Origin: Octopus vulgaris
Taxonomy: Eukaryota
Length of the DNA stretch: 64,000 bases
NCBI GenBank assembly: GCA_951406725.2
Contig: OX597814.1
Location: forward strand, 93,434,001 to 93,498,000
Direction: 5' to 3'
Below the pieces are notes generated by a model. The model was not told the DNA's origin. It saw nothing but the letters and a program-made list of their open reading frames with translations, and made no database searches. A program made the position numbers and the translations under genes. Of the stretch, positions 31,100 to 62,447 are shown in pieces (within the stretch, counting starts at the first letter, position 1; each line of letters starts with the position of its first letter).

Positions 31100-31520
31100 C
31101 AGCCGCCTACTTGGTCGCAAGGTTCTGAAGGAAAGCATCTTGTTTTAACCATCATCCATAAAATCTTAAGAAAGTCTTGCAGATTGTTGTAGTTCCAGAT
31201 ATCACGGTCATTTGTGGCGTATGAGTTAAGGATTTGCATTCTCTCCTTAAGATCCCAAATTCAGCCATGCTTTGCTCCAGATGGGTTGGAATGTATCCTG
31301 TTGCTCCAATAACAATGAATATGAAGCTGAAAGTGTATGTTGGGTACTGAATTTTCAAACTTCTTATCAATGGTTCATGGATGTCCCTTCCTCTTATTTT
31401 TCTAACCATATTCGTGTCCAGGGGGCAGCTGATTTCCAAAACTGAACACATATTTTCCTTGTAGTCCCATACAACAGTAACTGGCCGGTTGTGTTTTAAC
31501 TTGGTGGTTATCTTAATTCT
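31100..31520 (-). mobile_element. RLE-type LINE 3' fragment
   Basis: KHNRPVTVVWDYKENMCSVLEISCPLDTN..FIVIGATGYIP..VISGTTTICKTFLRF. Confidence 0.8.
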
Positions 31521-31544
31521 ATGTATGTGAGTCTCTTCTATTTT

Positions 31545-31980
31545 TTAATTATTACAAATTTTCCACTAAGGAGGGAGCCGGTTTCCAACAAAGATGCAAG
31601 GCTTGAAACTTGAGAAAAGTCTTGCATATTTTTACTGTTCCACTCACAGATTGCACTTGTAATATACGAATTAGCCAGTCGATTTCTCTTTCTAAAAATC
31701 CCAGTTTATCCAGATTCTCCTTTAAGCATTTACTAACAAACCCTAGTGCTCCAATTATTATTGGTATGAATATGAATCCATAGTCTTGATATAGAAGCTA
31801 GAGGTTTCGAAGAAGTTGCCCGTAGATATCCTCTTTTTCTTTGATTTTCAAAGAGATATTTATATCTACAGGGCAGCTGACCTCTATGAGGGTACATACC
31901 TTTGCCCTTCTATCACAAACAACAATATCCGATATGTTGTGTTTACATTTGACAGATGCTTTGATGGAAATATTCCACCA
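31545..31980 (-). mobile_element. RLE-type LINE 3' fragment, related subfamily
   Basis: WWNISIKASVKCKHNISDIVVCDRRAKVCTLIEVSCPVDINI..KEDIYGQLLRNL*..FIPIIIGALGFV..SVSGTVKICKTFLKF. Confidence 0.82.
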
Positions 31981-32529
31981 TGTATGTATGTATGTATGTA
32001 TGTATGTATGTATGTATGTATGTATGTATGTATGTATGTATGTATGTATGTATGTATGTATACATGTATGTATGCATGTATGTATGTACGTGTGTGTGTG
32101 TGTATGTATGCATGTACGTGTGTGTGTGTAAATACATGTGTATGTATACACTACGCTTGTGAAAACATTTAGATAAGTTTAAATATATTTGGCCTGTAAA
32201 AAACGCAGTGAAAATGGCTTCTGTACAGGGCAAATATGTTCCAAATACATTTGAACTGATACATGTATGTGTGGGTGGGTGCGTGTGTTTGAGTGTAAGG
32301 GTATTTTATTAAAAGTGAACGTTTAACTGAAGGTTGCGACACACACAGACATACAATACAACCCCATGTCCTTTATTTTTGTTTACCTAAGATTAATCAC
32401 TCGTTATCTACGTACATACACACCCACACCCACAAAAACACACACAAACACACACACATATGCACATATGTAATACATATATAACTGTTTGTAATCTTGA
32501 CAAGAAGTCAACAATTCTTAAGATTAGAG

Positions 32530-41915: not shown

Positions 41916-42157
41916 TATATATACATACATATCTGTGTGCGTATAAAGATCTCAACTTGAAGCCATCCTCCAATTTTCCCGCTGAAGAGTATTAACACCG
42001 AAATATAGGATTATAAGGTAAAGTGAAAGCTGTCGTTTTCTCTTCATCATTTCTCTTTTTACGTTTATATTTGAATTTTTTATATTGTTTTTTTTTTTTG
42101 TTTAAACAATTTCAATTTTAGCCTTAAATTTCTTACAATGCTGCATCCAAACTCTAC

Positions 42158-45384: not shown

Positions 45385-46288
45385 TTTCAACTTCAATTCC
45401 CACCATCCATACAGTGTAAAGAGCGGGATTGCTCAGTGCCTAAAACATCGAGCAATGAATATAAGTAGCAATCGTGATACACACCATGAGGAAATGATCA
45501 AGCTCAATAACAATCTATTAAGCAACAAATATCCCCAAAAGCATACTCTCCACTCCAATTATGAAGAAAAGAAAGGATAAAACCAATAAACTGTCCACAG
45601 TCTGTCTACCCTATGTGAAAGGCCTCTCCGAAAAGATACAAAAGATATGCGTCCCATATGACATCAGGACAGTATTTAAGAGTTATACAACACTTCGCAA
45701 TATCTCCTTATAGTAAGGCCACCAATAGAAGAGAATACGACCAAAAACTGAGTGTACTCCATCCCATGCAGCTGTGGTAGGTTAATCAAAGGCGAAACAT
45801 GCCGCCCTAAAACAAGGGGAGAAGAACATCGCAAAGCTGTGACACGAGGAGATATTGATAAATCAGGTATAGCTGATCATGTATGGAAAAATAGAGAACA
45901 TCTCCTCCTGTGGGACGAAGTTAAAATAATAGACAGAGAACACCACTGGAAAATACGAAAACTAAAAGAAACTATGATACAACAACCTCCTGAGCAGACC
46001 GAGTGCAGATATGAATAACATATGAGAACCGGTATAGGAGAATGTTAGATTTATAAGCCCTAAAATTCATTCCCCACGGGCATATGGTGTAGTGGTCAAG
46101 AGCGCGGGCTACTAACCCCAAGATTCCGAGCACGGTTCCAGGTACTGACCTGAATAATAATTATAATAATATCATCGAAAAATACCTTGGGAATGAGAAC
46201 CCAGGTTCGAAATTTCCCCAAGACACCTGATGAAACAAAACAAGATGTGGACAAATATCCGTGAAATGTAAATAAACTAAATAATGTC
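45385..46288 (+). mobile_element. Penelope/Poseidon-like element 3' fragment (RT thumb, GIY-YIG, 3' UTR)
   Basis: NFNSHHPYSVKSGIAQCLKHRAMNISS; VCLPYVKGLSEKIQKIC; VYSIPCSCGRLIKGETCRP.TRGEEH..SGIADHVW..WDEVKIIDREHHWKIRKLKE. Isolated CTGATGA at 46227-46233. Confidence 0.88.
46078..46150 (+). other. tRNA-like sequence downstream of the PLE ORF
   Basis: A-box-like TGGTGTAGTGG, anticodon-like arm GGG-CTACTAA-CCC, decayed B box GCACGGTTCC. No intact acceptor stem. Confidence 0.6.
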
Positions 46289-49325: not shown

Positions 49326-49822
49326 GAAGAAGAATAAGAAGAATGTGTGAGTGGTATGACAATAGTAGGATGTTGGTGGAATCCACTTAAATGGTCAAGT
49401 GACCTAAAATTGACTATTGGTTTTAATAGTAGTGATTGAAATTGTTCTGAATAAATTCATGGGTAGCGCCTGTTCTGAATATATCGTTTTTAATATTTGC
49501 GTGGGTATTATTTTAAGGCCCTTGTAATAGTGGTGGACGCATTCAAAAAGGGTTTATGTTTTGTGATAAAATATGACTCTTTACTAATGCGCTGAGTAAA
49601 GGTTGCATCGTCCCTGAATTGATAGAAGGGAAAAATTCTGAAGTTGAGTTGTTTGTTATTGTGGCAAATGTCGATGTGTTCGCTGAATGCTATTTTTCTG
49701 CATTTTCGAATTTTGATCTGGGATCTATGTATAACCATCCTTTGACGTAGACTGTATTTGGTTTGGCCTATGTATTGCTCTTGATACCCAGAACAAGTTA
49801 ATACAAATATCAGGATCTCCGA
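48946..49822 (-). mobile_element. Penelope-like (Neptune-like) element 3' fragment bounded by TA-rich microsatellite
   Basis: 49820-49508 reads LIFVLTCSGYQEQYIGQTKYSLRQRMVIHRSQI..FSEHIDIC..FRIFPF..RISKESYFITKHKPFLN, a GIY-YIG endonuclease C-terminus. The 3' UTR has a degenerate HHR and ends at TA/TG repeats. Confidence 0.85.
49005..49038 (-). ncRNA. Degenerate minimal hammerhead motif in the PLE 3' region
   Basis: Minus strand AG TTGAAAA AGTC-GCAAA-GGCT GGAA CCGG TA CT. Stem II and the palindromic CCGG loop are present, with three core substitutions. Confidence 0.45.
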
Positions 49823-49829
49823 ATATATG

Positions 49830-49879
<50 letters not shown>

Positions 49880-49914
49880 TGTGTGTTTGTGTGTATATTC
49901 ATATGCAAACAAAA

Positions 49915-49951
<37 letters not shown>

Positions 49952-56206: not shown

Positions 56207-57117
56207 CATATGTATATTTATATGTGTGTGTGTGTGTGTTGTGAGATGTAGACAGATTGATAGATAGAAAGAGAGAGAGAGAGAGAGAGAGAGAAGGAGA
56301 GAGTTAAATGATTATATATGTGTATGGGCATGTGTTTATGTGTGAGAGGGAAGCTAAAAATAAGTTCAGTGATATATACTTGAGATGACCCTTACGAAGT
56401 AGATAAATAAAATACTATTTGATGCCATTTCATTTGACGATTACCTTCGATAATATCTTTCTTTTTATCCAACAACGGCATTTAGGTGTGTCTCAATGAG
56501 ATATGATTGCTATTGGCTGCGCATCGGTTGCATAGCATGCTGTTCATGTCGGTTAAATAATGTAGCAGCTGTTGAAATTGTTTTGTAAAACGCATGAGTG
56601 TTTATTAACAGCAATAATAACAATGGGATTCCGCAGAAGAATAACAATTAGAGGAACAAATAAGAATATGAAGCAAAAAAGAAGTAGGTGAAGCAATGCA
56701 TTTGCAAATTAATGATGTACTTATGTGGAAACTAATCTACAAAGATTTCTTTGGATTGACGTATCCTCTCTAAGTAGCTACAGTATTCTACCGAATCATG
56801 GGATAATTTTATACTTGAACAGCATTAATTCTGCTCTTTATTCGATTACATTGAGCCACAACTAACTGTACGAATGAACCGTTGGGTTTCACAGTTCAAC
56901 AAATTCTCAGTTTTCAGAAATTTCAATAACAATAAAAATCAGTTTCTCAACGTCCATCCCGGGAAAATTTTAAGAAAATTAAAATATTTATATTTTTAAT
57001 ACTACATAACACATTCTACTACAGGCACAGGGCCTGACACTTTCTAAGGGAGGAGATTAGTTGCTTATATTGACCCCACCCAGGTCACAACTGGTACTTG
57101 TTTCATCAGCCCCGATT

Positions 57118-57170
<53 letters not shown>

Positions 57171-57175
<5 letters not shown>

Positions 57176-57680
57176 TAATGAAGGATAAAATTTTTTTTTT
57201 CGAAAAAAATATTCTTTTCAAAAAAAATTTCTAATGCCAGATATGCCGAAAAATTGGACATATTGTCGATTAACCATATAATTTTTTCACAATATGCACG
57301 CTACTCGAAAAAAGGTCGACAGAAATTTCTAAAACATTCCATTATTACCATATCGGACCGATTTCAGGGTTAGCTTATAACAGTCTTCCCTTCGTCAGTG
57401 ATACATGTGGCAAAAGAAATAAATGAGATACTTACTCATACCCATGGAAGAAGCGAACACTAAGTCATGAGCACAATTAATTACCCCAAATACATCCAAA
57501 ATAGAAATACTCCAGCCCATTCGAGACACGTGCGATTTGAACTGGAATGTTTTAGAAATTTCTGTCGACCTATTTTCGAGTAGCGTGCATATTGTGAAAA
57601 AATTATATGGTTAATGGACAATATGTCCAATTTTTCGGCATATCTGGCATTAGAAATTTTTTCGTTTGCCCTTAATTATG

Positions 57681-57684
<4 letters not shown>
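57171..57684. mobile_element. Fold-back PLE-derived unit in (TA)n: 120-bp inverted arms with an HHR in the spacer
   Basis: Arms 57222-57341 and 57543-57662 differ at only 2 positions by eye. (TA)n lies on both sides. Confidence 0.85.
57346..57403 (-). ncRNA. Type I hammerhead ribozyme motif, intact core
   Basis: Minus strand TATCA CTGACGA AGGG-(18 nt)-CCCT GAAA TCG-GTC-CGA TA TGGTA. All three stems pair, CUGANGA and GAAA are intact, AUA triplet (predicted cut between 57351 and 57350). Confidence 0.8.
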
Positions 57685-57715
<31 letters not shown>

Positions 57716-61332: not shown

Positions 61333-61513
61333 ATATATATGTATATATATATGAGTAAATGTAAGGACAAGCAAGTTAGGCAAGTCAATATACAAAAATT
61401 AGTGAATACATTTAATGCAAGAAGTGTACATATGTATGCATATAAAAACAGTCCGACTTACACAGAATATAAATGATATCAGGAATTAAAGAGGTTGAGT
61501 AAGAGTTTTACGA

Positions 61514-61606
61514 TTCCAGCAGCTGTTTCTGGGGGCTTGATGATCTAAAATAATGACTGTAACTTGATTCCATCATCGGAGACCACCAGCCTCCGTCTTC
61601 AGGGAA
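61514..61606 (-). ncRNA. Hammerhead motif with expanded stem II (left arm, cleavage-site mutant)
   Basis: Minus strand TTCC CTGAAGA CGGAGGCTGGTGGT..ATCATCAAGCCCCCA GAAAC AGCT GCT GGAA. Stem I TTCC/GGAA; U16.1>C. Confidence 0.5.
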
Positions 61607-62160
61607 GAATTTTTGTATTTGTGACATTGACAGGATGGAGTTTAAAGATGGAATGATGTTGTAGAGAACTAAATGTATTAGGAAGAGGAGTTGGGGGGTG
61701 TTTAGATAGAGAGTAGTAGAGGAGAAAATAGATTTCGAGGTTACAGTTAATAACATAACGGTCCACCTCCGATACCAACCCAATTCCTTTGTCTCACTAA
61801 CAACTACTTTTCACACCTTTTCACCCCCCTCAGCTACTGAACGAGTCAACTCATTTCCCTCTGCTATATAGCCATCCCTTTTCACTATCTCAACCTTTAA
61901 CTCTATAGCCGTCACACAAACTAATACAAAAGTCATCATTCACATACCACCTAAATTACCTTTTCCCCCTTTCTCCTACATTCCACCTCTACTACTATCA
62001 CTAACCTCATTATTAATCCTAACCCCGAAATCTATTTTCTCCTCCCACTACTCTCTATATAAACACCCTGCCTTAACTCCTCTACCTAATACACTTACTT
62101 CTCCACAAAATAATTCCATCTTAAACTCCATTCTGTCAGCACCTCAAATGTAAAATTCCT

Positions 62161-62249
62161 CCCTGAAGACGGAGGCTGGTGGTATCCGATGATGGAATCA
62201 AGTTACAGTCATTATTTTAGATCACCAAGCCCCTAGAAACAGCTGTTGG
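62161..62249 (+). ncRNA. Hammerhead motif with expanded stem II (right arm)
   Basis: CC CTGAAGA CGGAGGCTGGTGGT..ATCACCAAGCCCCTA GAAAC AGCT GTT GG. Intact boxes, palindromic AGCT loop III, GUU triplet; stem I reduced to 2 bp. Confidence 0.55.
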
Positions 62250-62447
62250 TTTCATAAAACTCTTACTCTACCCTTTTAATTCCTGATATCATTTATATTC
62301 TGCGTAAGTCGGACTGTTTTTTATGTCCATACATATGTACATGATTTGTATTAAATGCATTTAATATTTTTTATACATCGACTTGCCTAACTTGCTTGTC
62401 CGTACATTTATTCCTCTAACTGCTCAAGTCAAATCTTTTGAGCACTC

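What the first reader, a model, noticed from the sequence alone, without database searches (positions are those of the whole stretch)
57171..57684. Best-preserved hammerhead, enclosed between near-perfect 120-bp inverted arms
The minus-strand motif at 57346-57403 has all core nucleotides and three paired stems, with an 18-nt loop II that could make tertiary contacts. The predicted cut lies about 9 nt from the inner edge of the left arm. Only 2 mismatches between the arms suggest a recent insertion or gene conversion. A minus-strand transcript would form a long duplex with a self-cleaving loop.
Basis: partly seen in the sequence, partly recalled or inferred. Interest (0 to 1): 0.75.

Follow-up and report, generated by a model that had tools for sequence, protein, structure and literature searches.

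The report
Hammerhead retrozyme inserted head-to-head, Penelope-style
This is one of more than a thousand copies of a ~500-base non-coding repeat that carries a conserved, predicted self-cleaving hammerhead RNA; its two 'arms' are two truncated copies joined back-to-back inside a TA microsatellite, one ending at a long and one at a short fixed end point, the same layout as a protein-coding Penelope-like retrotransposon of this genome, whose enzyme likely made the insertion.

Summary
Hammerhead (57346-57403, minus) and arms (57222-57341 / 57543-57662, 118/120) are real. They are not a special hairpin gene and the arms are not terminal inverted repeats. The unit is one copy of a 498-nt, non-coding, 33% GC monomer (at least 1,198 hammerhead half-motifs in this 2.8-Gb genome, three or more subfamilies) with invariant core and compensatory changes in all stems: a non-LTR retrozyme. 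The locus is two 5'-truncated copies joined head-to-head in (TA)n. Across the family one outer end lies ~258 nt after the cut and the other ~153 nt (33 of 34 two-ended insertions not selected on ends); a young RT/GIY-YIG Penelope-like element here shows the same one-long/one-short rule (18 of 18). Arm length and cut-to-arm distance vary freely; each window arm has one private mutation, so conversion is not needed. In a transcript of this locus the hammerhead is predicted not to fold. Best reading: a dead insertion made by Penelope-like dual priming on both target strands. No helper with matching sequence was found; cleavage and circular RNA are untested.

The parts
57122..57171 (.). (TA)n tract, left target site
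   Evidence: sequence
57172..57542 (-). Copy 1 of the 498-nt monomer: 5'-truncated at -192 relative to the cut, runs through the hammerhead to the LONG end (~+258) fused to (TA)n; lacks 83 nt between two A-runs near 57222-57228, which removes the short end point
   Evidence: mapping to the full monomer of L030
57339..57410 (-). Type I hammerhead with distal stem I (57410-57408 with 57341-57339), stem I (57403-57399 with 57350-57346), core 57398-57392, extended stem II, stem III; predicted cut 57351/57350 after AUA
   Evidence: 98.6 bits with a model built from the family, itself included
57222..57341 (-). Left 'arm' = monomer +10 to about +129 of copy 1; private change at 57268
57542..57543 (.). 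Head-to-head (5'-5') junction of the two copies, 1-nt overlap
   Evidence: pieces 1500-1821 and 1821-1975 of L001
57543..57684 (+). Copy 2, inverted: monomer +10 to +151, no hammerhead, ends at the SHORT end point fused to (TA)n; 57543-57662 is the right 'arm', private change at 57572
57685..57715 (.). (TA)n tract, right target site
   Evidence: sequence

Best explanation
The locus is a two-piece, head-to-head insertion of a 498-nt non-coding hammerhead repeat (a non-LTR retrozyme), likely written into a (TA)n tract by the reverse transcriptase/GIY-YIG protein of a Penelope-like element. Shown: family, monomer length, conserved hammerhead, (TA)n targets, scattered 5' truncations, two fixed 3' end points used one per side, the same polarity in a protein-coding Penelope-like element. 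Inferred: the enzyme nicks both target strands; one nick primes cDNA at the long start site (~+258) and the other at the short site (~+153) of an uncleaved multimeric or circular RNA; both cDNAs stop early and are joined by microhomology; the stretch copied twice becomes the arms. Inferred role of the ribozyme: cutting multimeric transcripts into monomers (likely best as a double hammerhead) that can circularise. This copy, with one hammerhead and no second unit, is likely a dead product.
For: 1,775 and 1,911 first-look candidates for arm and middle; 507 exact A-type and 691 B/C-type hammerhead 3' halves, reversed-pattern controls 0. Cut-to-cut monomer 498 nt in L030; longest ATG frame 36 aa, GC 33%; circular fold -132.9 vs -100.6+/-5.8 kcal/mol, 0 of 60 shuffles as low. 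93.5% of cells paired, two-sided changes in all four helices, slid controls 24-40%. Polarity: 33 long/short, 1 short/short, 0 long/long among 34 two-ended insertions from 125 loci not picked by ends; of 90 loci picked by a long end, 52 had an inverted partner: 44 short, 1 long, 7 other. 18 of 18 head-to-head pairs of a 775-aa RT+GIY-YIG element have one long and one short end. 9 of 28 junctions have >=3 nt exact overlap, null 6.8%. Arms of one insertion are closer than to other copies (4.9% vs 6.9%; 53 of 61 below the median; 41 shared rare alleles vs 5.8 expected, 25 seen at other loci). cDNAs pass the cut with no excess of stops (5 of 39 at -10..+19). Literature: inverted 5'-truncated copy and a tail at one end (PMC8557442, passages); two RT start sites, both strands primed, uncleaved RNA used (PMC11167929).
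Against: No sequence link to a helper: the monomer does not match the non-coding parts of the two young elements (best E>=0.49; profile and model searches); only the top 150 of 6,136 GIY-YIG candidates were scored. In the 781-aa element only 3 of 30 long-end loci showed an inverted end within 1.5 kb and 1 of the 3 was long/long. Some insertions join different subfamilies (L138, L126) and 6 of 69 arm pairs are >10% apart, so one RNA for both cDNAs is not a rule. 24 of 90 long-end loci had no partner seen and 13 only an automatically called stub. PMC11167929 saw no strand difference in start site in vitro. No long tandem source array among the first 100 places listed. The tail here is 84-103 nt, not 30-40.
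Confidence: 0.82

Rival explanations
1. Same family, but it is the solo pseudo-LTR of an autonomous Penelope-like element not yet found, rather than an independent retrozyme; the 498-nt unit arose by deletion of the ORF.
For: Full Penelope-type anatomy; Xenopus retrozymes match pLTRs (10.64898/2026.07.22.740005).
Against: The unit closes on itself cut-to-cut without coding sequence in subfamilies A, B and C; no shared coding flank among 443 flanks; RT fragments near 8 of 210 loci look like neighbours, only L118 is fused. This rival concerns origin and is compatible with the best explanation.
Confidence: 0.3
2. A MITE with 120-bp terminal inverted repeats that captured a hammerhead.
For: Near-perfect arms, TA flanks.
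Against: Arms are not terminal here (the element runs on to 57172 and 57684), their length ranges from a stub to several hundred nt, and the arm sequence is simply the part of the monomer after the cut; the two ends differ in sequence.
Confidence: 0.02
3. A functional locus: a minus-strand hairpin RNA with a self-cleaving loop, kept by selection or conversion.
For: Core intact; MFE -249 kcal/mol for the hairpin.
Against: Hammerhead helices predicted absent in that fold (secondary-structure model only, no Mg2+ or tertiary terms); two private changes in the stem-II extension; one private change per arm; arm divergence in the range of other young pairs (0/64, 0/72, 1/99, 1/138, 2/151); about 16 of 44 comparable insertions also enclose a single hammerhead (read).
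Confidence: 0.04
4. The inverted layout comes from two separate insertions into one TA tract or from later fold-back repair, not from one dual-priming event.
For: Mixed-subfamily pairs (L138, L126) and nested insertions (L045, L260) exist.
Against: Junctions lack TA, show microhomology, and independent events would give long/long and short/short pairs in about half of cases, not 1 of 34.
Confidence: 0.07

Closest known systems
Non-LTR retrozymes of metazoans (PMC7229834; 10.64898/2026.07.22.740005), incl. mussel 350-390 nt and axolotl 330/350 nt repeats
   Same: Short non-coding low-GC monomer, one type I hammerhead per unit, strongly self-paired, tandem dimers, co-existing Penelope-like elements
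   Different: 498 nt; mostly dispersed, truncated, head-to-head insertions in (TA)n rather than arrays; two fixed ends with strict polarity; 4-bp stem III and extended stem II; circular RNA not shown here
EN+ Penelope-like elements, Neptune type (PMC8557442; PAc/Poseidon biochemistry in PMC11167929)
   Same: 5' truncation, partial tandems, inverted 5'-truncated partner, tail at one end, (TA)n targeting, hammerhead upstream of the RT start sites
   Different: No ORF; tail 84-103 nt instead of 30-40; canonical rather than minimal hammerhead; no sequence match to the two young elements examined
LINE-1 twin priming (recalled, no call)
   Same: Second target strand primes a second cDNA, inversion, microhomology junction
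   Different: Second start is a fixed site, and the two cDNAs overlap so that inverted repeats result
MITEs / DNA transposon TIRs (recalled)
   Same: Superficial: inverted arms, TA flanks
   Different: Arms internal, of free length, ends unlike each other

Membership tests
Type I hammerhead ribozyme | Core CUGANGA / GAAA / UH with three helices | tested here: met
   111 of 129 cores intact, position 7 free (C88 U20 A12 G9), H17 = A in 129 of 129; note copies were gathered by patterns covering the 3' half and filtered on the 5' core, which inflates conservation
Type I hammerhead ribozyme | Self-cleavage | not testable with these tools
   Fold only: active monomer 7.5 kcal/mol above the ensemble for this copy (A median 7.8, B 4.5, C 4.2); double hammerhead 3.5, 1.0 and 0 above the cofold minimum for A, B, C examples
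Rfam hammerhead families | Score above gathering threshold | tested here: not met
   no hammerhead family at E<=10; not filed under an Rfam family
Non-LTR retrozyme | Short non-coding monomer, GC <45%, one type I hammerhead per unit | tested here: met
   498 nt, 33% GC, ATG frames <=36 aa
Non-LTR retrozyme | Tandem repeats (dimers to multimers) | tested here: met
   same-strand hammerheads 498, 497, 489 and 467 nt apart; no long array among the first 100 places of each list
Non-LTR retrozyme | Highly self-paired monomer | tested here: met
   z = -5.6 against 60 dinucleotide shuffles
Non-LTR retrozyme | Expressed as circular RNA | not testable with these tools
   only assembled contigs were available
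Penelope-like element (insertion anatomy) | 5' truncation, inverted partner, tail at one end, microsatellite target | tested here: met
   293 of 443 flanks start with a TA run
Penelope-like element (autonomous) | RT + GIY-YIG ORF | tested here: not met
   no ORF; not filed as autonomous
Derivative of an identified Penelope-like element | Sequence homology to its pseudo-LTR | tested here: inconclusive
   no match to the 781-aa and 775-aa families or other GIY-YIG loci fetched; most families unsampled
MITE | Fixed terminal inverted repeats | tested here: not met

The most novel reading that the evidence does not exclude
Penelope-type integration is a strictly polar two-primer reaction: a dimeric enzyme starts one cDNA at the long and one at the short site of the same uncleaved or circular RNA, one on each target strand, and hammerhead retrozymes are its direct non-coding substrates. 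This family, with start sites 84-103 nt apart behind two loosely duplicated hairpin motifs, would be a compact natural substrate that records the reaction in hundreds of insertions.
Probability: 0.45. Interest if true: 0.68.

Novelty: new variant of a known kind. Interest (0 to 1): 0.45.

Why it matters
How animal retrozymes get into the genome is stated to be unresolved (10.64898/2026.07.22.740005, discussion) and the origin of Penelope tandem/inverted structures is listed as open (PMC8557442). Here a non-coding retrozyme and a protein-coding Penelope-like element in one genome obey the same one-long/one-short rule, which links them by insertion anatomy rather than by sequence and gives a sharp in vitro prediction (start at +153 on one strand, +258 on the other). 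The single locus itself is likely inert. I found no paper describing this family or this polarity for retrozymes in searches; a tail 'often at only one end' is in print for Penelope-like elements. Repbase/Dfam and the supplements of the papers were not seen and may hold the family.

Tried and rejected
Rfam whole window: top 150 of 276 hits were microsatellite matches to miRNA/snoRNA models; local scan no hammerhead. The repeat finder was swamped by microsatellites. Expression: no RNA holder listed; contigs of runs guessed as RNA cover the family but give no start, strand or level, and none bridges this locus; not used as evidence. Helper search: GIY-YIG family scan, a second protein scan, profile, covariance model and blastn found no homology; the related element in L072 is a separate subfamily-C insertion beside a 781-aa copy; L257 held two unrelated fragments. 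Internal duplication before the two start sites is only marginal (score 38 vs 27+/-4.5, 21 of 1000 block shuffles). Rise in stops of the long piece at the short site (8 stops in +170..+240 of 89, 27 in +110..+169 of 81) fits collision on one RNA but also easier joining; not counted as proof. In one search, 13 of 28 junctions gave negative overlap, partly because of private variants in the L030 reference (the window's own is such a case). One search timed out and was rerun. From the 131 hammerhead references 2 with deletions or duplications (L035:2044, L120) were left out of alignment A1; 25 of 167 pattern hits lacked the 5' core and were dropped. Earlier findings: none.

Full report
Observation. 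The minus strand at 57346-57403 holds a complete type I hammerhead with the cut predicted between 57351 and 57350, and the arms 57222-57341 and 57543-57662 match at 118 of 120 positions. The same descriptor finds nothing else in the window and nothing in 200 shuffled windows. Rfam does not recognise it. The genome is 2.8 Gb in 227 contigs and rich in microsatellites; that it looks like an octopus genome is my recollection, not a call result.

Family. Arm and middle each have about 1,800-1,900 first-look candidates, the best at 96-99% identity. Exact patterns give 507 A-type and 691 B/C-type hammerhead 3' halves, controls 0. Locus L030 holds a full cut-to-cut monomer of 498 nt, 33% GC, no ATG frame over 36 aa, folding as a circle 5.6 SD below dinucleotide shuffles. 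Subfamilies at about 80% (B) and 72-76% (C) share the layout. Contigs of runs under other organism labels also lay on it (X13, X16).

Ribozyme. In 129 aligned copies 93.5% of cells pair, against 24-40% for slid controls, with two-sided changes in stem I (AU 96 / GC 25), stem II (GC 68 / AU 44), stem III (CG 90 / UA 25), a distal stem I (GC 59 / AU 56) and a stem-II extension (UA 78 / CG 46). These counts reflect a few inherited events, and the copies were gathered by patterns over the 3' half. Between four subfamily majorities 27 of 81 columns change, none of 12 core columns (P about 0.004); position 7 is free. So the ribozyme was under selection in the source lineage. Folding favours an inactive form in which the core pairs with stem III for subfamily A monomers, while the double-hammerhead form comes close to or equals the minimum for two copies; dimeric activity is described for metazoan type I hammerheads (PMC4209133, passages; PMC7229834, passages and part 3 of 6). 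These are secondary-structure estimates only.

What the arms are. Mapped on the monomer, the locus is copy 1 (minus, -192 to ~+258, with an 83-nt deletion between A-runs) joined 5'-to-5' to copy 2 (plus, +10 to +151), each 3' end fused to (TA)n. The arms are the part present in both copies; their inner edge is a truncation and their outer edge is the deletion. In other copies the overlap runs from a stub to several hundred nt and either, both or neither piece holds the hammerhead.

Polarity. 3' ends fall at two sites, 103 nt apart in A and 84-89 in B and C. Of 34 two-ended insertions called in 125 loci not chosen by their ends (duplicates dropped), 33 have one long and one short end, 1 short/short, 0 long/long. 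Of 90 loci chosen by a long end, 52 have an inverted partner: 44 short, 1 long, 7 other; 13 have an automatically called stub, 24 none, 1 unclear. A young 775-aa RT + GIY-YIG element with an upstream ORF and a 4,271-bp unit shows one long and one short end in 18 of 18 head-to-head pairs (20 regions fetched, 2 were same-strand tandems). For a second, 781-aa element only 3 of 30 loci were informative: 2 short, 1 long. Both proteins carry a CxxxxCxxC linker before a C-terminal nuclease, the Neptune-type feature named in PMC8557442 (passages).

Mechanism. PMC11167929 (parts 1-2 of 4) shows for an anole element that both target strands are nicked and extended, that RT starts internally at two sites whose interval is the genomic tail, that uncleaved RNA is used, and predicts a dimer; it saw no strand bias in vitro. 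The data here fit one event with two primers, one per start site. Junction overlap of 3 nt or more occurs in 9 of 28 junctions against 6.8% by chance. cDNAs cross the cut without excess stops and some exceed one unit, so templates were multimers or circles. Arms of one insertion are closer to each other than to other near copies and share lineage alleles, but some pairs mix subfamilies, so two templates occur at least sometimes. The enzyme is inferred: no sequence link to either young element was found.

This locus. One private change per arm (57268, 57572) is what neutral decay gives; no conversion is needed. A minus-strand transcript would form the long duplex, but the hammerhead helices get probability 0.001 or less and the arm takes the distal stem I strand. 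With one hammerhead and a deleted short site the copy is likely inert.

Comparison and novelty. It works like, and meets the testable features of, non-LTR retrozymes (PMC7229834; 10.64898/2026.07.22.740005, parts 1-3 of 5), and inserts like a Penelope-like element. It is not a MITE and not an autonomous element. New in my searches are this family, its long tail, and the strict shared polarity; supplements, Repbase and Dfam were not seen. Verdict: real, explained, a variant of a known kind with a useful mechanistic handle; interest 0.45.

Noticed in passing
window 61444-62321: Second inverted pair (170-nt arms, 93%, 538 nt apart) with a CUGAAGA plus 5-bp hairpin in each arm and TA-rich flanks; looks like another head-to-head Penelope-type remnant of a different family.
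   Followed up: partly
L315:2124-5722 (-); G000 C1:27.84 Mb: Very young two-ORF Neptune-type element (454-aa frame plus 775-aa RT/GIY-YIG frame, 4,271-bp tandem unit, many identical copies) with a hammerhead-like motif whose core reads CCGAAGA rather than CUGANGA (by eye) and a ~33-nt tail.
   Followed up: partly
L092:1406-5087 (+): Second young two-ORF Neptune-type element (781 aa, copies ~98% alike) with a deviant hammerhead-like motif (UGAUAAG...GAAAC, by eye), repeated CCAAT/TGACGT boxes in the 3' region and a ~40-nt tail.
   Followed up: partly
window 49508-49915 (-) and 45392-45538 (+): Fragments of Penelope-like GIY-YIG and linker regions (tblastn 53% and 33% to the 781-aa protein).
   Followed up: partly
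window 41966-42028 (+): Weak hammerhead-like motif, 15 bits, E 3.8 with the family model; likely degenerate or chance.
   Followed up: no
window 31152-31544 and 31795-32178 (-): Frames resembling the C-terminal restriction-like endonuclease of non-LTR elements (by eye, recalled motif), one split by a microsatellite.
   Followed up: no
window 57030-57121: SINE-like repeat directly left of the TA tract; a similar repeat neighbours many family copies, probably because both sit at TA tracts.
   Followed up: no
L118:110-1017: An older Penelope-like RT fragment (49% to the 781-aa protein) is fused without TA to an inverted subfamily-B piece; deletion or template switch.
   Followed up: no
L103:927-1015 (-), L064:690 (-): Other hammerheads with short palindromic stem III, unrelated families.
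   Followed up: no
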